This document shows positions 34,961-51,197 of a DNA stretch of 64,000 nt, one piece after another (the first letter of the stretch is position 1; the number at the start of each line of letters is the position of its first letter). The stretch is from Candidatus Limnocylindrales bacterium. Its GTDB lineage: Bacteria > Chloroflexota > Limnocylindria > Limnocylindrales > CSP1-4. The DNA lies in NCBI GenBank assembly GCA_051306295.1, contig JBPPMZ010000125.1:453-64452 (forward strand). Reading direction: 5' to 3'. Position numbers and translations under genes: made by a program. The notes below the pieces were generated by a model. That model was not told the DNA's origin and did no database searches. It was given only the letters and a program-made list of their open reading frames with translations.

Positions 34961-35036
34961 GCGCCTGTAGCTCAGTGGATAGAGCGTTGGGTTCCGGACC
35001 CAAAGGTCGCAGGTTCGAGTCCTGTCGGGCGCGCCA
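34961..35036 (+). tRNA. tRNA-Arg (anticodon CCG), CCA encoded
   Basis: Hand-folded cloverleaf: acceptor GCGCCTG/CGGGCGC (one G-U), D-arm GCTC-AGTGGATA-GAGC, anticodon stem TTGGG/CCCAA with loop TTCCGGA, T-arm GCAGG-TTCGAGT-CCTGT, discriminator G, CCA. Confidence 0.95.
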
Positions 35037-35039
35037 TTG
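35021..35039 (+). repeat. att-like repeat copy 1 (3' end of tRNA-Arg, CCTGTCGGGCGCGCCATTG)
   Basis: Identical 17-19-mers occur at 36354-36370 and 53105-53123. Confidence 0.85.
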
Positions 35040-36353
35040 TCTTGAGTCGCGACATATGAGTCACATGAGTCGGGACATCCGAGTCACATGTGATCATCCG
35101 GTCGCTTGGGACCCCGGCCATCGGCCGGGGTCTCGTCGTGTGTTGCGCCAGTAGCCCTTGTCGGGCTCGATACGGTGGGTCGAGAGGACCTCGCCGGTGT
35201 CGAGGGCGACGACCGTAACCTCGACCTCGTCGACGATGGCGAGGACCCGCCGGCGGGCATGGGCGGCGCCGATCTTGAGGTGGTACAGCCGGCCGGCCCG
35301 GCGCAGGGTCATGGCGCCTCGGCTGTCGGTGACGTCGTAGCGGAGCCGGAAGTGACCCGAGGCAGCGCGGCCGACGGGCTGCGCCCGAGGGGTCGCCCGG
35401 TACGCCTCGCCCGGGGTGATCCGCCCGGTCGCCCGGTGCGGTCGCTGTTCGTCGTAGGCGGTCCGGAAGGCATCGAGCTGGACCTGCAGCTCGGGCAGCG
35501 TGGCGGCGGCCGGCTGCCGCCGGAGCCAGCGCTTCAAGGTCTGGTGGAAGCGCTCGATCTTGCCCTGGGTCTGGGGGTGGCCGGGAGCCCCGTTCTTCTG
35601 CCGGATGCCGAGGTAGGCGAGCAGGTACTCGAACCCGTTGCGGCCGCCGGTGAAGCGCGCCGTGTAGACGGCGCCGTTGTCGGTGAGCGTGGCGGCCGGC
35701 CAGCCGTGCTCGTCGCCCGCAGCGGTGAACGTGGCCACGACGTCGTCGCCCGACACCCGCCCGAAGGCCGCGCACGAGAGCAGGTAGCGCGAATGGTCGT
35801 CGAGCCAGCTCAGGATCTCGACCTCGCTCCCGTCGGCCAGGCGCCAGTGGGTGAAGTCCGACTGCCAGCACTCGTTGGGCGCCGCGGCCTCGAACCGGTG
35901 CCACGAGCTGCGCGGGCGCTTGCGCGGCTCGGGGACGACGAGGCCGGCGGCGTACAGCACCCGCCGGATGGTCGAGCTCGACGGGACCGGGTGGCCCTCG
36001 CGGCCGAGGTGCCAGGCGATCGTGACCGGGCCGGCGTCGAGACCCCGGGCGGTGAGCTCGGTGCGCAGGGCGACGATCCGCGCCCGGATCGCGTCCGGCG
36101 TCCGGCCCGGGTTGGTCAGCGGTCGGCGGGAGCGAGGCTCCAGCGCGTCCAGCCCACCGTCGCGATAGCGGCGGACCAGACGCGTGAGCTGTTGCCGGCT
36201 GATCCTGTACTCGGCCGCGGCGGCGGTGACGGACAGCTGCTTGGAGACGACCTTGAGGACGGCCACCCGATGCTTCGACATGGGCCCGACTGTCACGCAT
36301 GTCGCGACTCATCTGACTCGCATCACCTGACGCCTATGTCCTGAACTCGGACA
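35038..36353 (-). mobile_element. IS481-family insertion sequence
   Basis: Imperfect terminal inverted repeats TGTCTTGAGTCGCGACATA (left) and TGTCCGAGTTCAGGACATA (right, reverse complement). Subterminal GAGTC...ACAT repeats at both ends, a single DDE transposase ORF, and a flanking 16-17-bp direct repeat. Confidence 0.85.
35094..36296 (-). CDS. IS481-family DDE transposase (rve integrase core)
   Basis: N-terminal HTH (LSVTAAAAEYRISRQQLTRLVRRY). Catalytic blocks WQSDFTHW, LTDNGAVY and HPQTQGKIERFHQTLK. Confidence 0.9.
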   Translation of the reverse strand: MTVGPMSKHRVAVLKVVSKQLSVTAAAAEYRISRQQLTRLVRRYRDGGLDALEPRSRRPLTNPGRTPDAIRARIVALRTELTARGLDAGPVTIAWHLGREGHPVPSSSTIRRVLYAAGLVVPEPRKRPRSSWHRFEAAAPNECWQSDFTHWRLADGSEVEILSWLDDHSRYLLSCAAFGRVSGDDVVATFTAAGDEHGWPAATLTDNGAVYTARFTGGRNGFEYLLAYLGIRQKNGAPGHPQTQGKIERFHQTLKRWLRRQPAAATLPELQVQLDAFRTAYDEQRPHRATGRITPGEAYRATPRAQPVGRAASGHFRLRYDVTDSRGAMTLRRAGRLYHLKIGAAHARRRVLAIVDEVEVTVVALDTGEVLSTHRIEPDKGYWRNTRRDPGRWPGSQATG

Positions 36354-36370
36354 CTGTCGGGCGCGCCATT
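36354..36370 (+). repeat. att-like repeat copy 2 (CTGTCGGGCGCGCCATT)
   Basis: 17/17 identical to 35022-35038. Immediately follows the IS481 right end. Confidence 0.85.
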
Positions 36371-36443
36371 ACAACCTTTTCGGGCAGCGCCAGCGCCAAT
36401 CCGTGTGCGTAGGCCGCCGCGGTCAGGCGAAAGGGCTTAGAAC

Positions 36444-37046
36444 GTGCCGAAGATCTTTGTCGAACTGACGATGTCGTTGGACGGGTACGTCGCAGGTACC
36501 GACGTGAGCCTTGAGGATCCGCTGGGTAAGGGCGGTGACCGACTGTTCGAATGGTTCGAGGGCGGCGATTCCGGTCAGCCGTCGGCCGTTGACCGGGAGA
36601 TCGCGGCAAAGAAGCTCACCGGCACCGGAGCGATCGCGATGGGCCGGCGCATGTTCGACGTCGGCGAGAAGCCCTGGGGCGATAACAGCGCCTTTGGAAG
36701 ACCGTGCTTCGTCGTCACCAACCGGCCTCGCGAGGCGCTCGTGAAAGGCCCGACCACGTTTACGTTTGTCGATGGCGAATTCGCCGATGCGCTCGCACAG
36801 GCCCAAGCCGCCGCAGGAGAAGGTGACGTCTGTGTCATCGGCGGTGCCAACATCGCGTAGCAGGCCATGGCTGCAGGGGTCGTTGACGAGCTCCGCCTCC
36901 ACGTGGCGCCGGTGCTGCTGGGCGCCGGAACCAAACTGTTCGCCGATGCAGACCACCGCATCGAGCTGCTGCCGGTTCGAGTGATCGACACCCCAATGGC
37001 TGCGCACTTGACCTATCGTGTTCTTGAAGTAGCCAAGCGGAGCTGA
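36444..37046 (+). pseudogene. RibD_C-type dihydrofolate reductase-family gene interrupted by an in-frame TAG
   Basis: VPKIFVELTMSLDGYV...VIGGANIA-TAG(36858-36860)-QAMAAGVVDELRLHVAPVLLGAGTKLF. Family similarity continues in the same frame across the stop, to TGA 37044-37046. Confidence 0.7.
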
Positions 37047-37299
37047 GGTCCTGCCCTTACATCATCCCTGGCTTGTTCCCGAATGCGAACAGCCTCTCGA
37101 CCTCGTCGCTGATCACCCGTGCCGCCGTTGGCACTCGCCAGCGTTGGGTGTACTGCGTCAACCAGTAGGAACTCCGCCACGGAACCAGAGGACCAGCGAC
37201 TGATCGTCGTGTCCAGCCGAGGCTGAGCACCTCCCACGTGCATGCGGAGCGATCATCGGGTCGCGAGGAGCCCGACCGCTCCCGGGGTATCGTGTCGCC

Positions 37300-40122
37300 A
37301 TGCCCCCTGTCGATCTCGCGGCGTCGTCCTCTCCCGACATCGTCGGCCGGTCGATGGAACTTCAGGCGGTCGAGGATCTTCTTGCGGCGGCGACATCGGG
37401 CACTCAGGGAGCGGTCGGGCTGCTCATCGAAGGCGACGCGGGCGTCGGCAAGTCGATGCTCTGGCGAGCTGCGGTGAGGCTGGCCAACGAGCGCTTGATG
37501 GATGTCGTGCTGTGTGCACCGGCGGCGGTCGAGCAGGCGCTCTCGTTCGTCGCACTGCGCGACCTGATGGGCGGACTGCCGAGTGAGGAGTTGGATCGGC
37601 TGCCTCCACCGCAACGCAAGGCGCTCGGAGCGGCCCTGCTTCGGTTCGACGCCGACGCGGCGGTGGACCAGGGCGCGCTGGGCGTCGCACTCACGGCCGT
37701 CATCCGGCGCCGAACTGACGATCGACCGACCCTCCTGGCCATCGACGACACCCAGTGGCTGGATCCGCCGTCGGCTCGTAGCCTCGCCTTCGTCCTGCGC
37801 CGCCTGGCCGATGCCCGCCTCGGAGTGCTCATGACGCGACGTTCCGGTGAGGAAGCCCCGCTCTTCGAAGCGGCCGATCAGACGCTCGAGGCGCGATCGC
37901 AGCGGATCCGTCTCGGCCCTATCAGTTTCGGGGCGCTGCATCGTCTCCTCACATCACGGACCGGCCACCGATTCGCGCGCCCCGTCGTGGCGCGGATCGA
38001 ACGCGCCTCAGGTGGCAACCCGATGACGGCGCTCGAGATAGCGCGAGCGCTCCTCGAGTCCGGCGCCGGCGAGCTGGGTCCCGGCCAGGACCTGCCTGTC
38101 CCCGATCGGTTGCGCGACCTGCTGGACGCCCGGCTTGCGCGACTTAGCTCCCAGGGCCGGGCGGCGGTGCTCCTTGCGGCCGCATTGTCGCATCCGACTA
38201 CCGCGCTGATCGCCGCGGCCTCGCACGACCAGGCGGCGGCAGGCGATGGGCTTGCGGAAGCCGAGTCGGCGGGCATCGTCGCGATCGACGAGGGCCGGGT
38301 GCGATTCAGTCACCCACTGTTCGCATCGGTCGTCCAGGCCACCGCAACCACCGCGACTCGGCGTGCCGTGCATCGGCGCCTCGGGATGGTCGTGGCCGGC
38401 GAGGAGGAGCGCGCCTACCACCTCGCACTGGCCGCGACCGATCCGGACGCGGACCTTGCGGATCAGCTCGAAGTCGCAGGTCTCCAGACGTATCACCGGG
38501 GAGCACCTGATGTCGGGGCCGGGTTGCTCGCTCGGGCCGGGGCCCTGACTCCGACCACTGACCTCGTTGCACGAGGACGCAGGGCCGTCCTGGAGGCGGA
38601 GGCCCGAATGGAGGCCGGTGACCTCGCGGGCTCTGGGGACGTGCTCGAACGGGCGCGCGCCTGGATCCCGCCCGGGCGCCAACGTGCCGACGCGCTCCTG
38701 CTCCTCGGCACGGTCCACTGGTACCTCCACCTGGAACAGGCGATCGCGACGCTGGAGGAGGCACTGGCGGACGCCGCAGATGACGCGACGCTCCGCGGCC
38801 GTATCCATAGCCGGATGGCTCTGTTCGAAACTGATGTCGAGGCCAGTCGGGCGCACGGTCGGGCGGCCGTAGCGCTCATCGACCCCGCGATCGATCCGTC
38901 TGGACGCGCCTTCGCTCTGTTCGGGCTCTTCTTCGCTGACCTGCAAGCCGGGTCGCCCCCGGATCTGCAGGCGTTCGAGTCGGCGCTTGCGATCGAGCCC
39001 GATATCCCCTCCTGGGAAGCAAGCACGGTTCCCGCGCTCTGGTGGATGTACATCGACCAGCACGACCGCGCACGAGCGCGGCTCGAGAGGCACCTCAAGT
39101 GGGCGCGCGACTCGGGCGACGAATCGTCCGACGCCGACCTCTACGTCCACGTCGCGGAGCTCGAGCTCTATGCCGGCAACTGGTCGGCGGCGGACGCGGC
39201 GGCCGACCGCAGCGTCGACGCTGCCGAACAGATGGGTCAGGTCGCGCCTGACCCATCGCACCGGGTCCGTGCCCTCGTGGATGCGCACCTCGGCCGACTG
39301 GACCGAGCGATCGCCGAGGCGGCGGCGGGGGCCGCAGGCTGCCGCGATGTGGACCCGGAGCTGGAGGCGATGTACCTGGACGTGCTGGGCACGGCCCAGC
39401 TGGCCGGGGGTGAGTCTGCATCCGCGGCGGAGGCGTTCGACCGGATGGCGCTCATTCTCGAGGCCCGCGGCGTACGCGAACCGCTCCGCCACCGCACCGA
39501 GCCCGATCACATCGAGGCCCTCGTCGGGATCGGCGCGGCAGATCGCGCGGCGGCGCTGCTCGGCCGACTGGAACGGCGACACGAGATCGTGCCCCGCCCA
39601 TGGATCGCGGACGGGCTGCCACGTTCACGGGCGCTGGTTCGACTGGCTCGCGGAGACTCCGTTGGGGCAGCTGCCGAGCTCGCCGAGACTCTTGAGTCCG
39701 CCACGGCGTCGGATGCCGACGCATTCGCCTTGGGCCGATCCCTTCTTGTTCTCGGCCGCCTCGAACGACAGTTGGGCCATCGTCGGAGCGCCGGGGAAAG
39801 ACTCGACCGGGCCGTGGCCCTGTTCGACTCACTGCCGGCCCCGGCCTGGTCCGCCCAGGCGCGGCAGGAGAGCGACCGGCTCGGGCGCCGGCGCGGGGCT
39901 GGCGACGAGCTCACATCCGCTGAAGCGCGGGTCGTCGAGCTCATCGCCGGCGGCCTGACGAACCGGGCGGTCGCGGACCGGCTAGTCCTGAGTCCCAAGA
40001 CAGTCGAGGCGCACCTGGCCCGCGCGTACGCCAAGCTTGGCGTCCGATCAAGAGCGGAACTCGGGCGGCGCCTGGCAACTGGCAACGCCACCTCCGTGGA
40101 GTCAGACGACCCCGCGTTGTAG
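37300..40122 (+). CDS. LAL-type regulator (large ATP-binding LuxR family: AAA ATPase + TPR-like + C-terminal LuxR HTH)
   Basis: Walker A GDAGVGKS. Long helical-repeat middle. C-terminus LTSAEARVVELIAGGLTNRAVADRLVLSPKTVEAHLARAYAKLGV. Confidence 0.9.
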   Translation: MPPVDLAASSSPDIVGRSMELQAVEDLLAAATSGTQGAVGLLIEGDAGVGKSMLWRAAVRLANERLMDVVLCAPAAVEQALSFVALRDLMGGLPSEELDRLPPPQRKALGAALLRFDADAAVDQGALGVALTAVIRRRTDDRPTLLAIDDTQWLDPPSARSLAFVLRRLADARLGVLMTRRSGEEAPLFEAADQTLEARSQRIRLGPISFGALHRLLTSRTGHRFARPVVARIERASGGNPMTALEIARALLESGAGELGPGQDLPVPDRLRDLLDARLARLSSQGRAAVLLAAALSHPTTALIAAASHDQAAAGDGLAEAESAGIVAIDEGRVRFSHPLFASVVQATATTATRRAVHRRLGMVVAGEEERAYHLALAATDPDADLADQLEVAGLQTYHRGAPDVGAGLLARAGALTPTTDLVARGRRAVLEAEARMEAGDLAGSGDVLERARAWIPPGRQRADALLLLGTVHWYLHLEQAIATLEEALADAADDATLRGRIHSRMALFETDVEASRAHGRAAVALIDPAIDPSGRAFALFGLFFADLQAGSPPDLQAFESALAIEPDIPSWEASTVPALWWMYIDQHDRARARLERHLKWARDSGDESSDADLYVHVAELELYAGNWSAADAAADRSVDAAEQMGQVAPDPSHRVRALVDAHLGRLDRAIAEAAAGAAGCRDVDPELEAMYLDVLGTAQLAGGESASAAEAFDRMALILEARGVREPLRHRTEPDHIEALVGIGAADRAAALLGRLERRHEIVPRPWIADGLPRSRALVRLARGDSVGAAAELAETLESATASDADAFALGRSLLVLGRLERQLGHRRSAGERLDRAVALFDSLPAPAWSAQARQESDRLGRRRGAGDELTSAEARVVELIAGGLTNRAVADRLVLSPKTVEAHLARAYAKLGVRSRAELGRRLATGNATSVESDDPAL

Positions 40123-40140
40123 GGAATCACCGGATGCTGT
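40117..40140 (+). promoter_or_regulatory. Conserved island motif copy A: TTGTAGGGAATCACCGGATGCTGT
   Basis: The 12/12 identical core TTGTAGGGAATC plus a similar extension recurs at 45337-45360. Lies 29 nt upstream of ATG 40169 and overlaps the LAL stop codon. Confidence 0.45.
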
Positions 40141-40168
40141 CCGGACGCGCGGCCCACATCGTGTCGAG

Positions 40169-40504
40169 ATGACACCTGACCGCTTACCGGCTCCGCGCAC
40201 GTCGTTCCGGACCTTCCTCGCCGAGCGCTACCGCGCGGGCACCTCCCAGGCGATCGCTCGCCGCGAATCCGAAGCCGCACGAGTCGCGACCGTGGAGCTG
40301 TCAAAGGAGGGTCGTTTGGTGACGCTCATCGGATCCCTCCTCGTTCCGAGCGACGAGACGGTCTTCTCGCTGTTCGTGTCGGCGTCACCCGACGACGTCG
40401 CCGCCGTGGGCGAGCGGACCGATCAGCCATACGACCGGATCTCGGAGGGGGTCCCTGTCACGCCATCACGGGCTCGCACCGTCAAAAGACGGGCACCCCG
40501 ATGA
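40169..40504 (+). CDS. DUF4242-like small protein (111 aa)
   Basis: The pattern ...FLAERYRAG...AARVATVELSKEGRLVTLIGSLLVPSDETVFSLFVSASPDDVAAVGERTDQPYDRISEGV resembles the actinobacterial DUF4242 family from memory. Confidence 0.5.
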   Translation: MTPDRLPAPRTSFRTFLAERYRAGTSQAIARRESEAARVATVELSKEGRLVTLIGSLLVPSDETVFSLFVSASPDDVAAVGERTDQPYDRISEGVPVTPSRARTVKRRAPR

Positions 40505-43500
40505 CCGACTCCCAGCCCTCGTTCCACGCACGACCGGTCCGGTCGCTGATCGCGGGGCTCTTGACTGCTGCGATCGTCGCGGCGTGTTCGAGCACGCCAC
40601 CGACGGCCAGCCCTGGAGCCTCGGCTGCCCCGTTCGGATCGGCCGACGTCACGGCGGCAGTCCAGACGCTGGCATCGGCCGGCGTCGCGGTCCGTGTCAG
40701 GCCCGCGGATGCGCCGCTCCTGACGCCGACCGGCCAGAGCCGGGTCGCATTGCTTCGATTCCAGGTTCGCAACCTGGCCCTGGATGCGCGCGGCGGCGGT
40801 CTGCGCGGCTCCGAACTGGACGAGGTGGCGGTGGCAAACGGCGGACTGCCGGCCTCGTATCTCATCGCAGCCTGGGCGGAGGGCGCCGGCACGCTGGCCG
40901 CCGCCGCGGGCTCGAAGCTCCTCGGTGAGATGACGTCGACCGACCCGCCGGCGATGCGCTTTCCCGGCCTCGCCGTTGCGTTGTTCCTCGCGGACACGCT
41001 GCCGGATCCGGCCACTGCGACGGGAACCCCCAAGTTGGCGGCGGTCGGTCAGGTCGCCGCGGCGCCGATCGGTTTCTGTGATGAGGTCGGCGCCTACTTG
41101 AGCGGGGTCCTCGAAGGCATGCTCGACCCGACCCAGGCCCTTGCTCCCGCCTGGCTCGAGGGCGCCATCGACCGATACGCTCTGTTGGAGAGCGACCCCG
41201 TCAAGCTGCGCAACGCCGTCGCCGCGACCGCCATGCTCGTCTACGCGACGAGCATCTCCCGCCCATGGGTCGTCGAGATGGTCACTAGCCCGGGCGCGGT
41301 CCACTACCTCGTCGGTGACGAGGGCCAGCTCACCGGGGTGCCGCCCAACTCGGTCCGGATCGGAGTCGATGCAGGCGACGGGACCTTCGCCGACGAGGTC
41401 AACGGCTGCGCAGAGCTAGCCAGCGCCCAGCTTGCGGAGACTGACGTGGACGGCAGCCCGGTGACCTGGATCATGCCCCGCCTCGAGGGCCACGCCGAAG
41501 AGATCCCGATCGACGATATCGACGACGAGCTCGACGAGAATGGTGCCGCCGGCGTCGAATACACGACCCTGGATGAAACCACGAAGATGCACGACGAGGG
41601 CACCGAAGAGCGGGAGTTGGTGGTCGTCTGGGCCTTCATCGAGCGGCAGGACGTGACCTCGCTGAAGGCCCTCGTCGAACAGCTCATCGGCGGCACCGGG
41701 ATCCTCGCCCCCAACAGCCGGGCCGTCTACGACCGAGTCAAGCCTCAGCTCGACTCGCTGCTTGTCCCCCGTGCCTGGGAACAGGTCGATGTCTCATGGC
41801 ACGAGGCGCTCGAGCCGAGCCCGAGCCCCTCGCCGCCGCAGCCGTGCGCCGCGGGTTGCGCCGGCAGCAACGGCGATCCGCATCTGCGCACGGTCAACGG
41901 CGTCAGGTACGACTTCCAGGCCGCGGGCGAGTTCACGCTCCTCCGTTCACAGGATGGCTTGACCGAGATCCAGGCACGGCAGGAGCCCGTCTCGGTCGGT
42001 CGGGGTGTTGCCATGAACACCGCCATCGTCGTGCGCTCGGGAGACCACCGGATCGGCGTCTACGCGACAAAGGCCGGCACGACGGTCCGGCTCGACGGTC
42101 AGCCGGTCGACGCCTCGGGACCGACCGACCTGGGTGGGGGCCTGCGTCTCTCGATCCGACGATCGGGTGTCGAGGTCGGCCTTCCCGACGGGACCGTGAT
42201 CTACGCGATGGCTTTCGGCCGGATCAACCTCCAGATCGCTCCATCCGACGCGATGCGCCGCGCCGCCGTGGGGATCCTCGGGCCTGTGCCCGACGGCGCA
42301 AGTCTGCCCGCTCTGCCCGACGGCACCGTCCTGCCGGTCGACGGCGATCGGGTGCCGTTCCTGTACGGCCCGTTCGCCGACGGATGGCAGGTGACCGACA
42401 GCACGAGCCTGTTCGACTATGAGCAGGGGACGTCGAGCGCGACCTTCGCCAAACCTGAGTTCCCGTCTCCTGACGACATCGTGACCATCGATCGGCTGGA
42501 CCCGGGCGTCCGAGTGGCCGGCGAGACGGCGTGCTCCACGGTCGCCGACCCGGGGTTGCACGAGGAATGCGTCTTCGACGTCGCGATCACCGGCGACCTC
42601 GGCTACGTTGCTGGCTACGACCTGACGGATCAGTTCTTTCGCACCGGAACGGAAGCCTTTGGCCAGCCGGACGACCCGGTCGGTCCGCAACCGGCCGCCT
42701 CAGCGACGCCACTGCCGGTGGGCCCCCTATCGGAGGGCATCGTCGAGGTCCTGCCGAGCGTCGCCAGGTTGCTTGGCTCGGCCATGGGGCCGGACGGGAC
42801 GCTCTATCTCTCCGTGCAGCTGGCCCAGGGCACCTTCGAGGTGGTCGCGGCCGACCCGAAGACCGGGCGGATCACGGCCCGCGTGGAGGCACAGGGCGGG
42901 GGACAGGTCGCGCTGACCGCGGGCGCCGTGTGGGTGGGTGAGTTCGCCGGCGGACCCGCGTGCTCGGTCACCCGCCTCCAGCCAGCGACGCTCGTCGTCG
43001 AGGCGACGATCGCGACCGCGTGCACGACTTTTTACACGGAGCTCGCGGCGACGGCAAACGCGCTGTGGTACCAGGACACTGCCGGGCTCCGGGCGGGTGA
43101 TCCTGGCGCCAAGGTGCGCTGGATCGATCCTGCGACGAACAAGGTCTCGGGCTCCGTCGACCTGCCGTCGACCGTGGTCCCGGATCGGGCGACTGATCTG
43201 CGGGCGACCGACACAGCGGTGTTCTTCGGCTTCGACTCGGACGCTGGATACAGCGAGCTACGCCTCCGTGTCGGACAGGATCGATTCACTTCGGTCCGCA
43301 CGCCCGGCTCTCGAACACTGGTCGCTGGCGATGGCATCTGGGTGCAGGAGGTAGCGGCAGCCTCGTTCTACTCCACCGGCGGAGTGGCCGATCGCACTAT
43401 CCAGATCGAGGGCTCACTCGTCGCCGCCGATGAGCGGGCGCTCTATGTGCAGCGCTTCGGCGCCCAGGGGTCTGTGCAGGAGCTCTGGCGCCACCCGCTC

Positions 43501-43692: not shown

Positions 43693-43743
43693 GCCCATGG
43701 CTCATTGGACTGTTATCGGGATCCATCCGAAGGAGATAGCCTC

Positions 43744-45285
43744 GTGAGAACGTTCGTTGCCGTCGTGCTCGTCGTGCTGATGACTGCTGCGTGCGGCGGG
43801 TCGTCGCCGCTGGCCCCGAGCCCGCCACCTGGTGGGTCGGCGACGACCGGATCAACCTCGACCGTCACGCCCGGCGGAGCGACGTTTGCGGTCACATCTG
43901 GCGCGGCGTCGCCCGGCATCGCAGACGTCACATCGGCGTACGGCCTACCGCCCACCACCGACGGGTCGATCACCTATCAGCCTGACGTGGTCATCGTGGA
44001 CGGCGGCGCACGGGCCGTCCGGTCGGTGAGCTCCGATGGCATCAAGTGGACGATCGATGCCAACGCGGGACACGCGTCGGAACTCCAGCTCGACCGGATC
44101 ATGTTCCTGACGAGCCGCGCCGTCGGCCGCGTTCTCGCGATCGTGAGGGAAGGCGACGAGCTGACCGTGACATTGGGTCCGGTCGACCTGACGGACGTCA
44201 TCACGGAGGGTCGTATTGAGGTCAGCGCGGAGATCCCGCTCGACTCGCTGACGGGGCTTGCGGTGCCCGGTGAGCCCACCGCACTGGACTACGCCGAGAC
44301 GCCGACCCAAGGCCGCGTGGACGGCAGCGCGACACTCGCCCTGGCGCGCATCGCGGATCCGACGACCGTTGATGGGCCGCGTAACGACGTCGGCGAGCCC
44401 ACGCTACCGCCGACGACGACCGGCAGCACCTCGGAGATGAGCCTCGGGCCATTCAATGTCGAACTCTCCCGCTCGTCTGCCGACGGAGGGAGGCTCGGCC
44501 TCAAGGCGGGCTACCAGAAGAATGGCGTGACGATCGGTGTTGACTTCGGCGCTGTCCTCCAGAACCCGGTCTACGACGTTGCCCTGGACATCGCCGCCGG
44601 CCGGATCAGCAGCGCGCGGATGCGCATCGATGGGCTCGAGCAACTGACCGTCAAGCTCGACGGCAGCAGCACGACGGGCCTGGCAGGCAACTTCAAGGCG
44701 CGCGCGGAGGTCCCGTTCGAATTCAACATCCCGATCGCCGCGCCGATCCCCATCAATCTGAGCATCCGCCAGAAGTTCATCGTGGAGACCGCCTTCAGTG
44801 CCAAGAACAGCACGATCAGTGCAACCGGCGTCTTCGCGGTCGATGGACCGATCGGGTTCGATTACAAGGGTGGCTCCCTGACCCTGCTCACGCCGAAGGT
44901 CACCGAAACGCAGCCGCTCATCGATTCCCTCAGTGGGATCTCGGTCGGGGTCAACGGGATCGTCGTCGCCTACCAGCTGAAGGTGCTGGGCGGCATCGGC
45001 GTCCCGTTGTTCACGGCTGGACCGTTCGCGGCGATGACGGTATCGACGGGTCTGACCGTCGGTTCGGATCTCGGCATCGTGAAATGCCGGATCGCGTCGC
45101 TCGATGTCGTCGCCGCAGGTGGCCTGGGGTACACGATCTCATCGAGCGGCAAGGGGCTCATCGAGAAGTTCTTCCGGAAGCTCGGCGTGAGCGAGGCCAA
45201 ACTCGACTCGGAGTATTCGAGCGTGACCCAGACGCTTGTGCACGCGGTCCGCTCGGCCCCCGACGTGCCGGTCTGCAAGGGATGA
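43744..45285 (+). CDS. Lipoprotein of unknown family (513 aa)
   Basis: RBS AAGGAGA (43731-43737) and GTG 43744. Signal peptide ending LMTAACGG. Beta-strand-rich Gly/Ser/Thr/Val composition; no family recognised. Confidence 0.7.
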   Translation: MRTFVAVVLVVLMTAACGGSSPLAPSPPPGGSATTGSTSTVTPGGATFAVTSGAASPGIADVTSAYGLPPTTDGSITYQPDVVIVDGGARAVRSVSSDGIKWTIDANAGHASELQLDRIMFLTSRAVGRVLAIVREGDELTVTLGPVDLTDVITEGRIEVSAEIPLDSLTGLAVPGEPTALDYAETPTQGRVDGSATLALARIADPTTVDGPRNDVGEPTLPPTTTGSTSEMSLGPFNVELSRSSADGGRLGLKAGYQKNGVTIGVDFGAVLQNPVYDVALDIAAGRISSARMRIDGLEQLTVKLDGSSTTGLAGNFKARAEVPFEFNIPIAAPIPINLSIRQKFIVETAFSAKNSTISATGVFAVDGPIGFDYKGGSLTLLTPKVTETQPLIDSLSGISVGVNGIVVAYQLKVLGGIGVPLFTAGPFAAMTVSTGLTVGSDLGIVKCRIASLDVVAAGGLGYTISSSGKGLIEKFFRKLGVSEAKLDSEYSSVTQTLVHAVRSAPDVPVCKG

Positions 45286-45336
45286 GCTGCCACAACGTGT
45301 GACGGGACAGGCTGAGCGGCGGAACCGGCCACCAAC

Positions 45337-45360
45337 TTGTAGGGAATCGCCCGATGCCGC
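45337..45360 (+). promoter_or_regulatory. Conserved island motif copy B: TTGTAGGGAATCGCCCGATGCCGC
   Basis: Second copy of the 40117-40140 motif, 83 nt upstream of the collagen-like gene ATG 45443. Confidence 0.45.
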
Positions 45361-45442
45361 CCCGGGTGACGCGACCTAGCTTCGGTATGGCGGACGGTGA
45401 CCCGAACCTCGCGTCGCGATCCCGCCGATCGGAGGAACGCTG

Positions 45443-46198
45443 ATGTCCCGACTTCGTCCCTGGCAGCGGTTCGGACCGCGCCGTATCTTCGCTCTCGGGC
45501 TCGCTCTGACCCTTACCGTCGCGACGACCGCGGTGGTCGCCGCCGTCGTAACATCGGACCCCGGCCCGTTCACCGGATGCCTTGCGACGAAGACGACCGC
45601 GAAGGGCACCCTCTACAACGTCGCGATCGGATCCGCGCCGACCACGGCCTGCGCGAAGGGTGATGGTCAGGTCACCTTCAGCAATGCGCAAGGTCCGATC
45701 GGTCCGCAAGGTCTCCAGGGGCCGATGGGCGACCCGGGCGCGAACGGGATCGACGGCACGAACGGGATCGACGGCACGAACGGGATCGACGGCACGAACG
45801 GTGCAGCGGGGCCGGCGGGGCCGGCCGGTGGCGTGACCGATTCGTATGGTTCGTACGGTGCCGCCAACGTGCCGATCCTCTTGGGTCAGCTCAATACGAA
45901 CGTCGTCCGTTCCGAAGTCGTACCGGCCGGGAACTATGCGATCTTCGCGACCGGGATGGCCCAGAACCTGGATCGCGACGCCTTCTTCCAGTGCTTCATC
46001 CGGGCGGCGGGAACGATCGTCGCTGAGAATGACGCCCTGACCGAAGACGGTTGGCTGCACAACTCCACGATCTCGATCGTCGGTCAGGCGTCGATGCCTA
46101 GCGGGGGAACGATCGAGTTCCTCTGCCAGACCGCCTACGCGGGTGCCGAGGTGCGCCACGGCTCGCTGGTCGCGCTCAAGGTCGGCGCACTGCATTGA
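45443..46198 (+). CDS. Membrane-anchored collagen-like (G-X-Y) repeat protein with globular C-terminal domain
   Basis: RBS GGAGG. N-terminal TM (IFALGLALTLTVATTAVVAAVV). 15 uninterrupted G-X-Y triplets (nt 45692-45829). About 120-aa C-terminal domain. Confidence 0.8.
   Translation: MSRLRPWQRFGPRRIFALGLALTLTVATTAVVAAVVTSDPGPFTGCLATKTTAKGTLYNVAIGSAPTTACAKGDGQVTFSNAQGPIGPQGLQGPMGDPGANGIDGTNGIDGTNGIDGTNGAAGPAGPAGGVTDSYGSYGAANVPILLGQLNTNVVRSEVVPAGNYAIFATGMAQNLDRDAFFQCFIRAAGTIVAENDALTEDGWLHNSTISIVGQASMPSGGTIEFLCQTAYAGAEVRHGSLVALKVGALH
45742..45801 (+). repeat. Exact 18-nt tandem repeat GAACGGGATCGACGGCAC x3.3 inside the collagen-like region
   Basis: Read directly from the sequence. Encodes (N)GIDGT repeated three times. 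Confidence 0.9.
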
Positions 46199-46289
46199 CT
46201 ACCTCTTCAGGCGCTTCCACGTCCGCCTCCGCGCGTGTCGGACGCGCCAAGCGGAGACAACCTGCCAATCTACCTTCAGGAGTTCAGTC

Positions 46290-46979
46290 ATGAAGCAAGT
46301 ACTCGGACGAGTCGCGCTTGGCGCGATCATGGTTGCGATCCTTGGTTGTGGCGGGGGGGCCCCGAACCCACTGGCCTCCGGTTCCGCTGCGACCGCACCT
46401 TCGTCGACGACGGCCGGCACCTCGATGGAGGTGCCGAGTGCGCCGGCAGCGGCATCACCATCGGCGACAGCCGATGCGTCATCGCCCGCGGGCCTGCCAT
46501 CTCTGCCCGCGATCTTCTCGAGTCACGCCGATCCGGCACTCGAGGGCCAGCTTCCAGCGGAGGTATCCGGGACCACATTGCAGCACTACAGCCTCACGCT
46601 GTCCGAGGTCCTGGACGCCGGTGGCGACCGGGCATCGATCGACGCCTTCCTCCAGGGGATCGGCAAGACCGAAGCGGACGGAAGCTTTGCGGCTGCCCTC
46701 GATCCAGGCAACGCGCTCGGAGGCGGGATCTTCGCGTTCAAGGTCAAAGGCGCCGATACGGCAACGCTGCTCGCGGGCATCGTGGCCGTCGAGCAATCGG
46801 ATTTGGGCGGTGGTGCGACGACGCGGCAGGCAACCGTCGGCGGCAAGAGCGTGACCATCGTGTCGGTGGGAACGGGCGTCAACGATACGGAGTGGATCTA
46901 CGGACGCGGCGACGTCGTGTTTGTCGTGCACGCAGGCGACGAGACGCACGCGGCTGCCTTCCTCCAGGCGCTTCCGTAA
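46290..46979 (+). CDS. Lipoprotein of unknown family (229 aa)
   Basis: RBS AGGAG and ATG 46290. Signal peptide with lipobox ILGC, then an Ala/Ser/Pro-rich linker and a globular domain. Confidence 0.7.
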   Translation: MKQVLGRVALGAIMVAILGCGGGAPNPLASGSAATAPSSTTAGTSMEVPSAPAAASPSATADASSPAGLPSLPAIFSSHADPALEGQLPAEVSGTTLQHYSLTLSEVLDAGGDRASIDAFLQGIGKTEADGSFAAALDPGNALGGGIFAFKVKGADTATLLAGIVAVEQSDLGGGATTRQATVGGKSVTIVSVGTGVNDTEWIYGRGDVVFVVHAGDETHAAAFLQALP

Positions 46980-47167
46980 CAAGGCACGCCACCTCGTCCA
47001 GCCCAACTCCAATTGTTGGCTCCTTCGATCGGAATCAGCGTGATTCTCGAGTGGGTACCCGCACGCCCAACGTGGCGGGGCGGTCAACCCGGGGCGCCTC
47101 TACACGATCGTTCCATAGTGTTGGGGACGGTCTGCCCATCACTGCGGCCAGGATCCACGCCTCGGCT

Positions 47168-47818
47168 TTAGTGGAGACCGAAGAGCAGCGCCAGCCCAAT
47201 CGCGAGGGGAGGGAGGAAGAGCGTCAAGGGCGGTACGTCGCCTGCGATCACGAAACCCCCCAAGACGAGCAGAGCGAACACGCTCGTTCCGGCTCCAACA
47301 AGCGACGAGACTGGCCCATCGACCGCGAGGGCGAGGCCGACAGCGATGAGACCAGCTGCTCCGAGGACGACGAAGGCGCCATACAGGCCGCCTGCCCACC
47401 GGTCGGCGATCTCGGCCGCCGGGTCAACGATGCCCATCGCCGCGAACCGGCTGGCAACCGTCGGGACCACCGCCAGGCGATGGACGAGCGACGTGGCCCA
47501 GAGCACCGCCGCAACGCTGAAGCTGACGGCCCCGGCGGCCGCCAGCAGGGCGGTCCCCGAGTCGGCAACCTGCGCTGGCACGATGTCGAGCCCGGCGGTC
47601 GTGACGACGGTCCCCGCGAGGAGGCAGAGGTTCGCGAACCGCCAGAGGCCGGGCCGGCCGTGGATCGAGGCGAGGTACTGGTCGGGCGGCACCCGCATCA
47701 CGGTCCAGAAATACGCACCCGCGCCAACGAGGAAAAGGGCGGGCCCGACTACGAGCAGCCAGCCAGTCAGGGTGACGCCGCTCATCGCCGTCCGAGCCTC
47801 GACGGCGTCAGCACTCAT
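47168..47818 (-). CDS. Integral membrane protein of unknown family (about 6 hydrophobic segments)
   Basis: 216-aa ORF (ATG 47818, alternative ATG 47785). Continuous hydrophobic helices; no family recognised. Confidence 0.6.
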   Translation of the reverse strand: MSADAVEARTAMSGVTLTGWLLVVGPALFLVGAGAYFWTVMRVPPDQYLASIHGRPGLWRFANLCLLAGTVVTTAGLDIVPAQVADSGTALLAAAGAVSFSVAAVLWATSLVHRLAVVPTVASRFAAMGIVDPAAEIADRWAGGLYGAFVVLGAAGLIAVGLALAVDGPVSSLVGAGTSVFALLVLGGFVIAGDVPPLTLFLPPLAIGLALLFGLH

Positions 47819-47911
47819 GCATCACCCCACTGGTGCAAACCCCAAGAACTGCGGATAACTGAGAGCTCGTCGCGCCTTGACGGTTTCTCAGTTAGCCCGC
47901 AGACTGCGCCC

Positions 47912-49693
47912 GTGGCCAGCCTATTGGAGACACTCGACCTGATCCGCGACGGCGCGGTGCCCCGCGACCTCGAATCCGAGCAGCTCGAGTTCAAGCAGGA
48001 GGAGTCCGCGGACCCGCGCCGGTCGCTCGAGATGCTCGCCGACGCCGTCGTGTGCCTTGCGAACGCCGAGGGCGGGACGATCGTGGTCGGGGTGGTCGAC
48101 GCCGTCGGCGGCCCCGCGGCGTTTCGGGGCGTCTCGACCCGCCTGACCGCCGACGTGATTCGGAAGGGGATCTTCGACCGCACCCGGCCGTCGCTCTCGG
48201 TGCCGGTCGCGGAGGTCCTCGAGGGCACCGCCCGTCTGGTCGTGATCACCGTCCCGAAGGGGGCGGTCTTCTACGCCAACGCCGCGGGCACCGCGACCCG
48301 GCGCGTGGGGAGCGAGTGCCGGCCCTTCCCGCCCGAGGAGCAGCGGCAGGCGATGGCCGCCCGCGGCCTGTCGGACTGGTCGGCCGAGGCGACAGACCTC
48401 GGGATGGAGGCCGTATCCGCCGACGAGGTCGCCCGCATCCGCAGGCTGCTCCTGCTGGCCGGCCGGGAAGACCTCGCCAGGGCTGACGAGCGCAAGCTCG
48501 CCCGGGACCTGCGCCTGCTCACGTCCCACGGCAAGCTGACGCGGGCAGGACTGCTGGTCCTCGGTGACGCCGAGACGATCGCCGCGGCCATCCCCAACCA
48601 CGGGTTCTCCTACCAGTACCGGGCGAGCCCGGGCAGCGAGTCGACCGCCCGCATCCGATCCACGCGGTCCCTGCTCGCCGCCGTCGAGTCCCTCCTCGAC
48701 GCGGTCGCCGTCCGCAGCCGGGTGCACCCACTTAGCGCGTCGGGCGGCGTCCAGATCCAGATCCATGACTACCCGGCAGACGCCGTCCGCGAGCTCGTGG
48801 TCAACGCGCTCGTCCACCGCGACTACGAGCTCGCGGGCGCGGTCGACGTGGAGCACTCGCCCGACTCGCTGGCTGTCACCAGCCCGGGGGGCCTTGTCTT
48901 CGGGGTCACCCCCGAGAACATCCTCACTCACCCGTCCACGCCACGGAACCGGCTCCTGCTCGAGACGGTCACGGCGCTGCAGGTCGCGGAGCGGACGGGC
49001 CAGGGGATCGACCGCGCGTACCGGGAGCTGCTCCGCACCGGGAAGGTCCCGCCCACCTTCGGCGACGACGGATACCAGGTACGCGTCCTCGTCCAGGGCG
49101 GGACCGGCAACGACGCGTTCGCGCGGTTCGTCGCTGAGCTCGCGCCGGAGCTCGGGGGTGACGTTGACGTCCTCCTGGCACTGTCGCATCTCCGCGACGC
49201 GCGCAACATCGACGCCGCCCGGCTCGCCGCGATCGCCCAGCGGTCGACGAGCGAGGCGCAGGGCGTGCTCGAGCGGCTGGCCCTGGCGCGGCTCGTCGCG
49301 CCGACTGCCCGGACGGCAGCTCGGGCGCTCCCTACGTACGTCCTCACCGGCTCTACGCTGGCCAGCCTGGGCAGGGCGGTGCGCTATCACGTGCGCCGGG
49401 CCGATGAGACCGACCGCAAGGTCGCCGATCACATCCGCGAGTACGGCCACGTCACCAACCAGACGCTGCGGCGCATGTTCGACGTCGACGTCGCGGGGGC
49501 CAGGGATCTGCTGCGGGCACTGCAGCAGCGGGGGGTGATCGTCAAGCTGGACCAGGGCCGCGGCGGACCCGGAATCCGGTACGGCCGCGGACCGAAGATG
49601 CCGGCGGGCGAGAGCCGCCCCTCGAGGACGGCCCGCGGCGAGCCGGCCGATCAGCTGGCGCTTGACGAGCTCGAGCGGGCCTCCGACGAGTAG
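47912..49693 (+). CDS. COG2865-type protein: Schlafen/AlbA_2 divergent-AAA domain + HATPase_c_4 + C-terminal wHTH
   Basis: ESEQLEFKQE...ANAEGGTIVVGV (AlbA_2 pattern). AVRELVVNALVHRDY...TPRNRLL...ERTGQGIDR (HATPase_c_4 pattern). C-terminal wHTH (VTNQTLRRMFDVDVAGARDLLRALQQRGVI). Start at GTG 47912 or TTG 47924. Only the 3' half of the 1152-aa track ORF is coding. Confidence 0.75.
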   Translation: MASLLETLDLIRDGAVPRDLESEQLEFKQEESADPRRSLEMLADAVVCLANAEGGTIVVGVVDAVGGPAAFRGVSTRLTADVIRKGIFDRTRPSLSVPVAEVLEGTARLVVITVPKGAVFYANAAGTATRRVGSECRPFPPEEQRQAMAARGLSDWSAEATDLGMEAVSADEVARIRRLLLLAGREDLARADERKLARDLRLLTSHGKLTRAGLLVLGDAETIAAAIPNHGFSYQYRASPGSESTARIRSTRSLLAAVESLLDAVAVRSRVHPLSASGGVQIQIHDYPADAVRELVVNALVHRDYELAGAVDVEHSPDSLAVTSPGGLVFGVTPENILTHPSTPRNRLLLETVTALQVAERTGQGIDRAYRELLRTGKVPPTFGDDGYQVRVLVQGGTGNDAFARFVAELAPELGGDVDVLLALSHLRDARNIDAARLAAIAQRSTSEAQGVLERLALARLVAPTARTAARALPTYVLTGSTLASLGRAVRYHVRRADETDRKVADHIREYGHVTNQTLRRMFDVDVAGARDLLRALQQRGVIVKLDQGRGGPGIRYGRGPKMPAGESRPSRTARGEPADQLALDELERASDE

Positions 49694-50085
49694 CCCACGT
49701 CGCCACCCGCATGGGCGCCGGCCGCCCAGCCCGGGCCGCCTCGAGCTCGGTGGGTGGGATCGGCCAAGGCCTGGGCCAAGGCGCCCCTCCGGCGCCCCGT
49801 GGCGCCCGGCGGCGAAGACGCCCCGATCCATCTCCTCCTCAGGCTCCGGGAGCAGCGGAGCCAGATCCACACGAGCTGCTTGGTCGTTGGCGCACGCATC
49901 TTGGACCGGGCGCTCGCCAGGTGGTGCCTGACGGTCGAGTTAGACAGGCCCAGGCGGTGGGCGAATACGCTGTCGCTGTGTCGCCCGCACGATCCGGTGA
50001 GGACCCGCGGAAGCGCCCCGTCAGATGCGCTCGTACACGCCAAGCACGGCGAGGATTCGCCCTTCGGCGCTGTTGCGCGCGACAT
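49651..50085 (-). pseudogene. LuxR-type HTH paralog 1, frameshifted just after the HTH relative to paralogs 2 and 3
   Basis: HRLGLSNSTVRHHLASARSKMRAPTTKQLVWI matches paralog 3. Nucleotide alignment shows ATC-TGGCTCCG here versus ATCCTGGCCCCG in paralog 3 (one nt missing); the corrected frame would read ILAPLLPEPEEE. No clean start downstream of the methyltransferase stop. Confidence 0.5.
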
Positions 50086-50851: not shown

Positions 50852-50936
50852 CGAACCTCCTGGGCGCACCGATCCCTCTCTCCTTGAAGCAAACGCAATC
50901 CTCTCCGTCAGCTGGCACCGAGTCAACCGTGCACGT

Positions 50937-51126
50937 CTATCGGACGGGGTCATCAGCCGCCCGGGATGAATGTTCGACGCCCTGCGCTTCACCTTCGGCA
51001 TCAGGCAGCCGCGCGCCAAGGATCCACACCAGCTGCGCCGTGGTCGTCGCCCCGACCTTGGACCGTGCCTTCGCCAGGTGGTGCTTCACGGTCGAGTGCG
51101 AAGGGCAGAGGTGGTAGGCCGGGCAA
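50937..51126 (-). pseudogene. LuxR-type HTH paralog 2, 5'-truncated fragment
   Basis: Translation LPGLHLCPSHSTVKHHLAKARSKVGATTTAQLVWILGARLPDAEGE parallels paralog 3 but lacks the first helix. An in-frame stop lies at 51139-51141. Confidence 0.45.
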
Positions 51127-51197
51127 GGACTCGCGCGCTCAGTCAGCTTTCAAGAATGTCACGTGAACCCGGCCGCTGGGACAACCCAAGGGACAGA

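What the first reader, a model, noticed from the sequence alone, without database searches (positions are those of the whole stretch)
40117..40140. Shared 24-nt motif (TTGTAGGGAATC + RCCSGATGCYG) upstream of both island operons
TTGTAGGGAATCACCGGATGCTGT (40117-40140) and TTGTAGGGAATCGCCCGATGCCGC (45337-45360) share a 12/12 identical core and a similar extension. Copy A lies 29 nt upstream of the DUF4242-like/VWD operon and overlaps the stop codon of the LAL regulator. Copy B lies 83 nt upstream of the collagen-like gene. I did not see the core anywhere else while reading the window. It is a plausible shared operator for the LAL regulator, or a promoter element for a dedicated sigma factor (GGAAT resembles ECF -35 elements).
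Basis: seen in the sequence. Interest (0 to 1): 0.6.

Follow-up and report, generated by a model that had tools for sequence, protein, structure and literature searches.

The report
Operator site of a LAL regulator
The repeated 12-letter word is the core of a 19-base promoter site, conserved across an uncultured Chloroflexota family (Limnocylindrales), that almost certainly serves the large LuxR-type (LAL) regulator encoded next to it; it is a well-supported but ordinary kind of regulator-operator pair.

Summary
TTGTAGGGAATC occurs exactly at 40117 and 45337, and nowhere else in the 3.2-Mb genome (about 0.06 copies expected by chance).

The conserved unit is R-TAGGGAATC-R-CCS-GATG-C; the leading TT is not conserved.
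- I collected 37 non-redundant copies from related Limnocylindrales MAGs. In 30 of them a TAnnnT/CAnnnT -10 box lies exactly 19-20 nt downstream, against at most 1 at any other offset.
- A start codon often follows 5-8 nt after the -10 box, which implies leaderless mRNA.
- The site therefore spans about -49 to -32 and overlaps the -35 position.
- 26 of the 37 sites have a LAL gene within 1.5 kb. In 8 of them the site's TAG is the LAL stop codon.
- A paralogous LAL clade carries a different conserved block at the same promoter position. The HTH recognition helix co-varies with site type: SPKTVEA[HNT]L in 21 of 21, against APKTV[DG]NVL in 4 of 4.
- Strain variants in metagenomes change the flanks and spacer but not the motif or the -10 box.

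Best reading: this is a MalT-like, class II-type LAL activator site driving both island operons.
- The alternative-sigma idea is not supported.
- Binding, the transcription start sites and the direction of regulation are all untested.

The parts
37300..40122 (+). LAL-type regulator gene (940 aa): N-terminal AAA_16 P-loop NTPase, TPR-like middle region, C-terminal LuxR/GerE HTH with the helix LSPKTVEAHLARAY. Its TAG stop codon (40120-40122) is the first triplet of operator A.
   Evidence: Pfam AAA_16 1.4e-16, GerE 2.2e-13, TPR_12 just below cut-off. The helix type co-varies with the site type.
40117..40140 (+).
40119..40137 (+). Operator A: the conserved 19-nt unit G-TAGGGAATC-A-CCG-GATG-C. It spans about -50 to -32 from the predicted start at 40169.
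   Evidence: Consensus of 37 sites. Invariant in strain variants while the flanks change.
40157..40162 (+). Predicted -10 box CATCGT, 19 nt after operator A.
   Evidence: A [TC]AnnnT hexamer lies at offset 19-20 in 30/37 sites and in at most 1 at other offsets. The same hexamer occurs in the orthologues L021 and L030 and in a metagenome contig.
40169..40504 (+). Small 111-aa ORF, weakly SCO4226/DUF4242-like. The ATG lies 6 nt after the -10 box and there is no Shine-Dalgarno sequence, so a leaderless first gene of operon A is predicted.
   Evidence: orthologues 65-71% identical in L021, L023 and L059
40501..43692 (+). 1063-aa protein with a VWD domain (operon A, second gene).
   Evidence: Pfam VWD 3.6e-05
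43705..45285 (+). 526-aa protein with no family match (operon A, third gene). Homologues follow the site in other genomes.
   Evidence: L054, L056, L058; L099, L111
45337..45360 (+).
45339..45357 (+). Operator B: G-TAGGGAATC-G-CCC-GATG-C.
   Evidence: Invariant in strain variants, although a 38-nt deletion and 7 substitutions lie just upstream.
45377..45382 (+). Predicted -10 box TAGCTT, 19 nt after operator B.
   Evidence: TAGCGT at the same place in L018
45387..45443 (+). Possible leaderless 18-codon uORF. Its ATG lies 4 nt after the -10 box, and its TGA overlaps the ATG of the collagen-like gene (TGATG). Function uncertain.
   Evidence: read from the sequence
45443..46198 (+). Collagen-like 251-aa protein, first long gene of operon B, preceded by GGAGGAA.
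   Evidence: Pfam Collagen 3e-07; NCBIfam collagen-like adhesin hits far below cut-off
46235..49693 (+). 1152-aa protein with SLFN AlbA_2 and HATPase_c_4 domains (operon B, second gene).
   Evidence: only domain-level hits in PADLOC

Best explanation
The two copies are operators of the island's own LAL regulator (37300-40122).

Proposed mechanism:
- Each operator is a 19-bp site, R-TAGGGAATC-R-CCS-GATG-C, containing the imperfect dyad GAATC-N4-GATGC.
- Each ends 19 nt upstream of a housekeeping-type -10 box: CATCGT at 40157 and TAGCTT at 45377.
- That places each site at about -49 to -32, centred near -41, where it replaces or overlaps a missing -35 element.
- The ATP- and effector-controlled LAL would bind there through its C-terminal LuxR-type HTH.
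- It would then recruit RNA polymerase holding the primary sigma factor, in the class II manner of MalT at MalT boxes.

Predicted targets:
- Operon A: a leaderless small SCO4226-like gene, the VWD protein and the 526-aa protein.
- Operon B: the collagen-like protein, the Schlafen/AlbA_2 ATPase, and possibly more.

Shown here:
- conservation of the site;
- fixed spacing to a -10 box;
- start codons at a leaderless distance;
- linkage to LAL genes;
- co-variation of the LAL recognition helix with the site type.

Inferred, not shown:
- that the LAL is the protein that binds;
- that it activates rather than represses;
- the exact transcription start sites.
For: 1. Uniqueness. There are only two copies in the genome, both inside one tRNA-Arg-linked island that also encodes the LAL.

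2. Phylogenetic footprint.
- With up to 2 mismatches the 21-mer occurs 29 times in 21 of 401 genomes of the order, against 2 hits for the reversed control.
- A scan of all 185,579 species genomes with core plus -10 box found 27 stretches. By my reading of the record titles, at least 22 are Chloroflexota or Limnocylindrales MAGs.
- The orthologous loci L021, L023 and L059 (LAL 60-70% identical) keep the site.

3. Promoter geometry.
- 30 of 37 non-redundant sites have [TC]AnnnT exactly 19-20 nt after GATGC, against 0-1 at any of the 34 other offsets tested.
- Leaving out the five sites that were found with a -10 requirement gives 25 of 32.
- About 16 sites have ATG or GTG 5-8 nt after the box, opening an ORF of 99 aa or more.

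4. Linkage to LAL genes.
- 26 of 37 sites have a LAL gene within 1.5 kb.
- 15 lie right after the LAL 3' end and 8 are divergent from its 5' end.
- In 8 sites the TAG of the site is the LAL stop codon.
- Two genomes with 'orphan' sites hold a matching LAL with its own site on another contig.

5. Specificity co-variation.
- 21 of 21 LALs followed by this site have the helix SPKT[VI]EA[HNT]L.
- 4 of 4 LALs of a separate, 100%-supported clade have APKTV[DG]NVL.
- That clade is followed instead by CGCCYCTTTCRTCG at the same promoter position, before the same kind of small leaderless gene.
- One genome (G041) holds both pairs.

6. Micro-evolution.
- In related strains from other metagenomes, 6 substitutions fall in the 25 nt upstream of copy A.
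- Upstream of copy B there are 7 substitutions, a 3-nt insertion and a 38-nt deletion.
- There are also 3 changes in the spacers.
- None falls in either motif or either -10 box.

7. Precedent. The Actinoplanes LAL MalT has a motif that overlaps the -35 region and ends 34.4 +/- 1.0 nt from mapped start sites. The paper gives a similar position, overlapping the -35 region, for the E. coli MalT box (PMC7567727). Here the site ends about 32 nt from the predicted start.
Against: - There is no experimental binding, transcription start or expression data. The organism is an uncultured beach-sand MAG, and the only 'RNA' run holding it is doubtful and also covers the region upstream of promoter B.
- A site overlapping the -35 position could equally be a repressor site, and at least one LAL (SCO6993) is a repressor (PMC9628970).
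- The site collection was built by similarity to the window's motif, so conservation inside the core is partly circular. The independent signals are the unspecified positions, the -10 box, the LAL linkage and the helix co-variation.
- 11 of 37 sites have no LAL within 1.5 kb.
- MalT needs several boxes per promoter, whereas here there is one site per promoter.
- The dyad is weak (4 of 5) and the left arm is longer, so the binding stoichiometry is unclear.
Confidence: 0.72

Rival explanations
1. The same LAL binds the same site but acts as a repressor. By sitting on the -35 position it blocks RNA polymerase until an effector releases it.
For: The site overlaps the -35 position. The LAL SCO6993 represses by binding promoter regions (PMC9628970). 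The operons could receive read-through transcription from the LAL gene, whose stop codon lies inside the site.
Against: The promoters show no conserved -35 hexamer of their own apart from the motif's own 'TG'. That is the hallmark of activator-dependent promoters. The best-studied LALs with sites at this position (MalT of E. coli, Klebsiella and Actinoplanes) are activators (PMC7567727).
Confidence: 0.14
2. The motif is a promoter element for a dedicated alternative sigma factor, with GGAAT as an ECF-type -35, or for sigma-54.
For: GGAAT resembles ECF -35 elements. The motif has GG...GC. The LAL HTH gives weak cross-hits to sigma-70 region 4 models.
Against: Information content is about zero at the place where an ECF -10 box would lie, 16-17 nt after GGAAT. 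The conserved TAnnnT lies 29-30 nt from GGAAT. GG and GC are 11-12 nt apart rather than 10. No Sigma54_DBD match above cut-off exists in a 94.7%-complete genome. No sigma-factor gene was found among the island ORFs scanned.
Confidence: 0.03
3. The site is bound by some other transcription factor, and LAL genes are merely frequent neighbours or targets.
For: 11 of 37 sites have no LAL within 1.5 kb. The island also holds small LuxR-HTH proteins, such as 52608-53027.
Against: The recognition helix of the adjacent LAL co-varies perfectly with the site type, in 25 of 25 cases. The small HTH proteins are not found next to sites in other genomes. Sites occur only in genomes with the matching LAL type wherever this was checked.
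Confidence: 0.07
4. The two copies are direct repeats left by recombination or a mobile element (att-like or cassette ends flanking 40129-45336), or they are a structured RNA leader.
For: They are two same-strand copies 5.2 kb apart inside a genomic island.
Against: In other genomes sites are single, divergent, or in tandem arrays 0.8 kb apart. They always point toward a downstream gene at a fixed distance from a -10 box. No integrase lies between them. There is no Rfam match. The motif lies upstream of the predicted start, so it would not be transcribed from its own promoter.
Confidence: 0.02

Closest known systems
MalT boxes of the MalT (LAL/STAND) activator in E. coli and Klebsiella, and the MalT regulon of Actinoplanes sp. 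SE50/110 (PMC7567727)
   Same: - The regulator has the same architecture: P-loop NTPase, helical repeat sensor and C-terminal LuxR HTH.
- The site overlaps the -35 region and ends about 32-35 nt from the start.
- The regulon is a horizontally mobile gene block of poorly annotated genes.
- The motif is conserved upstream of ORFs in related genomes while the gene order is shuffled.
   Different: - The sequence is different: TAGGGAATC-N-CCS-GATGC, against GGGGA(T/G)GAGG or TCATCC-N5-GGATGA.
- There is one site per promoter rather than several.
- The protein matches the NCBIfam MalT model only over the HTH and far below cut-off.
- The phylum is different (Chloroflexota).
- Several target mRNAs are predicted to be leaderless.
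- The operator often contains the regulator's own stop codon.
Class II activator sites (CRP/FNR at -41.5, LuxR lux box at about -42.5); from my own knowledge
   Same: The site is centred at about -41, the -35 element is absent, and the -10 box is of the primary-sigma type.
   Different: The regulator family is different from CRP/FNR. Unlike the 20-bp symmetric lux box, this site is markedly asymmetric.
Streptomyces LAL regulators with mapped sites, e.g. SCO6993 (PMC9628970)
   Same: It is a large ATP-binding LuxR-family protein that binds short imperfect palindromes in promoter regions, including its own.
   Different: SCO6993 is a repressor with no derivable consensus. Here a sharp consensus exists across dozens of loci.

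Membership tests
LAL (large ATP-binding LuxR-family / MalT-like STAND) regulator: the protein at 37300-40122 | N-terminal P-loop NTPase domain | tested here: met
   Pfam AAA_16 residues 15-173, E 1.4e-16, 61.9 bits against a cut-off of 32.6
LAL (large ATP-binding LuxR-family / MalT-like STAND) regulator: the protein at 37300-40122 | C-terminal LuxR/GerE-type HTH | tested here: met
   Pfam GerE residues 870-921, E 2.2e-13
LAL (large ATP-binding LuxR-family / MalT-like STAND) regulator: the protein at 37300-40122 | Helical-repeat (TPR-like) sensor region between the two domains, and a size of about 900-1000 aa | tested here: inconclusive
   The size is met (940 aa). TPR_12 scores 28.9 bits, just under the 30.1 cut-off.
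MalT orthologue | Full-length match to the NCBIfam MalT equivalog model | tested here: not met
   PRK04841 scores 27.3 bits against a cut-off of 537, over the HTH only
MalT-box-type (class II) LAL activator site | The site overlaps the -35 region, with its 3' end about 32-35 nt upstream of the transcription start | tested here: inconclusive
   This is met relative to the predicted -10 box (19-20 nt spacing in 30/37 sites) and to leaderless start codons. No start site has been mapped.
MalT-box-type (class II) LAL activator site | GGA(T/G)GA core hexamer | tested here: not met
   The consensus right arm is CGATGC. Only copy A reads GGATGC. The left arm, TAGGGAATC, is unrelated (PMC7567727).
MalT-box-type (class II) LAL activator site | Bound by the cognate LAL, with ATP- and inducer-dependent activation | not testable with these tools
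   Only indirect evidence exists: gene linkage and helix/site co-variation.
ECF sigma-factor promoter | A GGAAC/T -35 element followed 16-17 nt later by a conserved CGT-type -10 box | tested here: not met
   There is no information content at that distance. The conserved box lies 29-30 nt away.
Sigma-54 promoter | GG-N10-GC spacing and an rpoN gene in the genome | tested here: not met
   The spacing is 11-12 nt. The best Sigma54_DBD hit scores 20.4 bits, below the cut-off.
Known RNA family (Rfam) | Covariance-model match | tested here: not met
   No match at E <= 1 in 36000-52000
SCO4226-like / DUF4242 (PF14026): the small first gene at 40169-40504 | Pfam match above the gathering score | tested here: not met
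   15.2 bits (E 0.025) against a cut-off of 28.5. Relatives score 17-23 bits. A profile of nine relatives hits the SCO4226 structure 4oi3 at only E 0.021 and TrkA C-terminal domains at 8e-05. The resemblance is only suggestive.

The most novel reading that the evidence does not exclude
The LAL gene, its operator and the small leaderless gene may form a portable three-part regulatory cassette that has diversified into mutually orthogonal regulator/operator pairs.
- At least two types exist, A and B, and they coexist in one genome (G041).
- In this reading the regulator's stop codon is deliberately embedded in its own operator, so that the two cannot be separated by recombination.
- The small SCO4226-like protein would be a dedicated partner of the LAL, acting as co-sensor or feedback modulator.
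- The cassette would then be a general plug-in switch for island-borne surface-protein operons in Limnocylindrales.
Probability: 0.25. Interest if true: 0.55.

Novelty: new member of a known kind. Interest (0 to 1): 0.4.

Why it matters
- No regulator-operator pair has, to my knowledge, been described for Limnocylindria, a widespread but uncultured soil and freshwater Chloroflexota class. My only literature check for the motif itself returned 16S rRNA sequences.
- This finding gives a precise, testable operator, its promoter geometry and a cognate regulator clade.
- It also gives a second, apparently orthogonal pair (type B).
- It suggests that leaderless transcription from TAnnnT-only promoters occurs at these loci in this lineage.
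- It defines a two-promoter regulon of surface or secreted proteins (VWD-domain, collagen-like) on a tRNA-linked island, so their co-expression can be assumed in later work.
- For specialists in LAL/STAND regulators it adds a clean natural example of helix/operator co-variation, which could help decode LuxR-HTH specificity.
- It does not reveal a new mechanism.

Tried and rejected
- **Sigma-70 -35/-10 consensus scan and terminator scan** of 36500-51500: nothing found. The simple scanner requires a -35 match, and these promoters lack one.
- **Rfam:** no match.
- **Exact 12-mer in 40 relatives:** absent. This first suggested the motif was private to this genome. It was misleading, because the leading TTG is not conserved. 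A relaxed core finds it even in a same-genus genome (L009).
- **First genome-collection scan**: four of seven hits were in low-GC Firmicutes, Acidobacteria and Desulfobacterota, inside coding sequence. I set these aside as chance (about 4 expected for 19 specified bases in 596 Gb).
- **Family scan with -10 box**: I mis-set the gap by one base, so it caught only the 19-nt spacing class. I used it only as extra sites and excluded them from the -10 statistic.
- **RNA evidence:**
  - No true metatranscriptome holds the locus.
  - The run labelled RNA-Seq (X9) has a contig ending at 40165, 4 nt before the predicted start.
  - The same run also covers DNA upstream of promoter B, so it may be DNA. 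I do not count it.
- **Hits outside Chloroflexota**, none counted:
  - Virgisporangium ochraceum has the core plus TACGGT between an EF-hand-like ORF and an ABC transporter, with no LAL nearby. This is probably chance.
  - The Mycobacterium sp. MAG hit (L114) and one MAG labelled 'Actinomycetes' (L113) also lack a LAL.
- **Anti-phage defence reading of the island:** PADLOC gives only domain-level HTH hits. Rejected.
- **Direct-repeat or att reading:** rejected on orientation and context in other genomes.
Full report
**Observation**

Copy A (40117-40140) overlaps the TAG stop of a 940-aa ORF (37300-40122) and ends 28 nt before the ATG at 40169. Copy B (45337-45360) lies 52 nt after the stop of the 526-aa ORF and 82 nt before the ATG of the collagen-like gene (45443).

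The 12-nt core is present only twice in the whole 3.2-Mb, 181-contig assembly. From the 70% GC composition I calculate about 0.06 copies expected. A relaxed core with up to 3 mismatches gives no other credible site in the genome.

**Genes and setting**
- Pfam shows the upstream ORF to be a LAL-architecture regulator: AAA_16, a near-threshold TPR, and a GerE HTH.
- Operon A has three genes:
  - a 111-aa protein with only sub-threshold SCO4226/DUF4242 likeness;
  - a 1063-aa VWD-domain protein;
  - a 526-aa orphan.
- Operon B starts with a collagen-like protein, followed by an 1152-aa AlbA_2/HATPase_c_4 protein.
- The block lies in an ~18-kb island next to tRNA-Arg(CCG) (34961-35036). The last 19 nt of that tRNA recur at 36353 and 53106.
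- The genome is a beach-sand MAG.
- It shares a GTDB family with MAGs that NCBI labels Candidatus Limnocylindrales or Chloroflexota. The high GC content therefore does not mean it is an actinobacterium.

**What the motif is**

A scan of one genome per species with TTGTAGGGAATCNCCNGATGC returned three Limnocylindrales loci plus four hits at chance level.
- Two of the three (L021, L023) repeat the copy-A arrangement: a LAL ending in ...L-TAG, the motif, then the small gene.
- The third (L018) resembles copy B.

An order-wide scan allowing 2 mismatches found 29 hits in 21 of 401 genomes, against 2 for the reversed control. I collected 37 non-redundant sites. Their consensus is R-TAGGGAATC-R-CCC-GATG-C.
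- Four positions that the search left free (0, 10, 13, 18) are nonetheless biased.

The decisive feature is downstream.
- 30 of 37 sites carry [TC]AnnnT (mostly TAGCGT, TACGGT or CATCGT) exactly 19 or 20 nt after GATGC. At most one site has such a hexamer at any other offset from 0 to 35.
- Dropping the sites that were found with a -10 requirement gives 25 of 32.
- In about 16 sites an ATG or GTG follows 5-8 nt after this hexamer and opens an ORF of 99 aa or more.
- In the window, CATCGT (40157-40162) is followed after 6 nt by the ATG of the small gene, with no Shine-Dalgarno sequence. This is the signature of a leaderless mRNA.
- Copy B has TAGCTT (45377-45382). An ATG 4 nt later opens only an 18-codon ORF whose stop overlaps the collagen-like ATG. 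The main gene has its own GGAGGAA.

The motif is therefore an upstream promoter element spanning about -49 to -32 and centred near -41. No separate -35 hexamer is present.

**Who reads it**

Linkage to LAL genes:
- 26 of 37 sites have a LAL gene within 1.5 kb.
- 15 lie immediately after the LAL 3' end, 8 are divergent from its 5' end, and 1 is upstream of it.
- In 8 sites, involving LALs only 35-70% identical to one another, the site's TAG is the LAL stop codon.
- The closest full-arrangement relative (L059, LAL ~70% identical) keeps two sites although the gene order differs. One follows the LAL and precedes the small gene. The other is divergent from the LAL and precedes Schlafen-like and VWD-like genes.
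- Two genomes whose site had no neighbouring LAL (G041, G215) encode a matching LAL with its own site on another contig.

Specificity co-variation:
- Same-genus LAL paralogues at ~38% identity (L010-L013) are also followed by a leaderless small gene of the same type.
- They use a different conserved block, CGCCYCTTTCRTCG, 15-16 nt before a TAnnnT box.
- These LALs form a separate clade with 100% support.
- Across all LAL C-termini held, the recognition helix reads SPKT[VI]EA[HNT]L in 21 of 21 LALs followed by the TAGGGAATC site. It reads APKTV[DG]NVL in 4 of 4 LALs followed by the other block.

This helix/operator co-variation is the strongest available argument that the LAL itself reads the motif.

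**Micro-evolution**

Related strains are present in other metagenomes.
- Six substitutions fall in the 25 nt upstream of copy A, and one in its spacer.
- Upstream of copy B there are seven substitutions, a 3-nt insertion and a 38-nt deletion. There are also two substitutions in its spacer and a 1-nt insertion after its -10 box.
- Nothing changes in either motif or either -10 box.
- One contig from another locus shares only the 31 nt around the motif. It then has an unrelated 19-nt spacer, CATCGT, 6 nt and ATG.

**Mechanism and rivals**

The geometry matches that reported for LAL activators.
- The Actinoplanes MalT motif overlaps the -35 region and ends 34.4 +/- 1.0 nt from mapped start sites.
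- That paper gives a similar position, overlapping the -35 region, for the E. coli MalT box (PMC7567727).

I therefore read both copies as class II-type activator sites of the island's LAL. I put 0.72 on this overall.

The rivals fare as follows.
- **Repressor role at the same site.** This remains possible, since SCO6993 is a LAL repressor (PMC9628970).
- **ECF or other sigma -35 element.** This is contradicted by the lack of any conserved element 16-17 nt after GGAAT.
- **Sigma-54 promoter.** This is contradicted by the GG..GC spacing and by the absence of rpoN.
- **Repeat, att or RNA readings.** These are contradicted by the orientation and context of sites elsewhere and by the absence of any Rfam match.

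**Comparison and novelty**

The protein has LAL architecture but is not a MalT orthologue. The site shares position, but not sequence, with MalT boxes. This is a new member of a known kind. The small twists are the stop codon embedded in the operator, the leaderless targets, and at least two apparently orthogonal LAL/operator pairs in one bacterial family.

Nothing here has been tested at the bench. Binding, start sites and the direction of regulation remain predictions.

Noticed in passing
L010:4352-4475, L012:4385-4510, L011:4310-4420, L013:1345-1470(-), L088: A second LAL clade in same-genus and same-family genomes has its own conserved block, CGCCYCTTTCRTCG, 15-16 nt before a TAnnnT box and a leaderless ATGGACC small gene. 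Its HTH helix is APKTV[DG]NVL instead of SPKTVEAHL. Genome G041 holds both types.
   Followed up: partly
window 34961-35036, 35021-35039, 36353-36371, 53106-53124: The last 19 nt of tRNA-Arg(CCG) recur twice and bracket an ~18-kb island that contains the LAL and both operons. No integrase gene was seen among the ORFs scanned.
   Followed up: partly
window 45387-45443: An 18-codon ORF starts 4 nt after the predicted -10 box of promoter B and ends in a TGA that overlaps the ATG of the collagen-like gene (TGATG). In the L018 relative the equivalent ATG is in frame with the long ORF.
   Followed up: partly
window 45284-45321: Related strains in two other runs (X6, X9) lack these 38 nt just upstream of operator B and have an extra C after 45386. 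Other strains (X5, X7) have a TGA insertion after 45312.
   Followed up: yes
window 45737-45801: There are three in-register, overlapping copies of an 18-nt unit inside the collagen-like gene (G-X-Y repeats).
   Followed up: no
window 49838-49962, 50995-51119, 52816-52940: A 125-nt segment is repeated three times (62-82% identity). The ORF at 52608-53027, which overlaps the third copy, encodes a small LuxR/GerE-HTH protein (Pfam GerE 9.3e-08).
   Followed up: partly
L064:12818-14388(-) (G373:C6, = L094): Three tandem copies of the site, each with its own TAGnGT box, are spaced ~780 bp apart on one strand. A fourth copy lies upstream of a fragmented LAL gene.
   Followed up: no
L108:6682-6725(-), Virgisporangium ochraceum NBRC 16418: A perfect core plus TACGGT at the right spacing occurs in a cultured actinomycete, between an EF-hand-like ORF and an ABC-transporter ORF, with no LAL nearby. 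It is probably chance but remains unresolved.
   Followed up: partly
alignment A2 (small proteins after the site): A profile of nine of these ~100-aa proteins hits TrkA C-terminal (RCK_C-like) domains (E 8e-05) better than the SCO4226 nickel-binding protein (E 0.021). The DUF4242 label is therefore insecure.
   Followed up: partly
L095, L096, L097, L102: Contigs that carry the site next to a LAL gene are labelled in NCBI as 'uncultured Actinomycetes', 'Sulfomarinibacteraceae' or 'Anaerolineaceae'. L096 and L102 correspond to contigs of genomes (G275, G172) that the genome search places in the window's GTDB family, so those labels look inconsistent.
   Followed up: no
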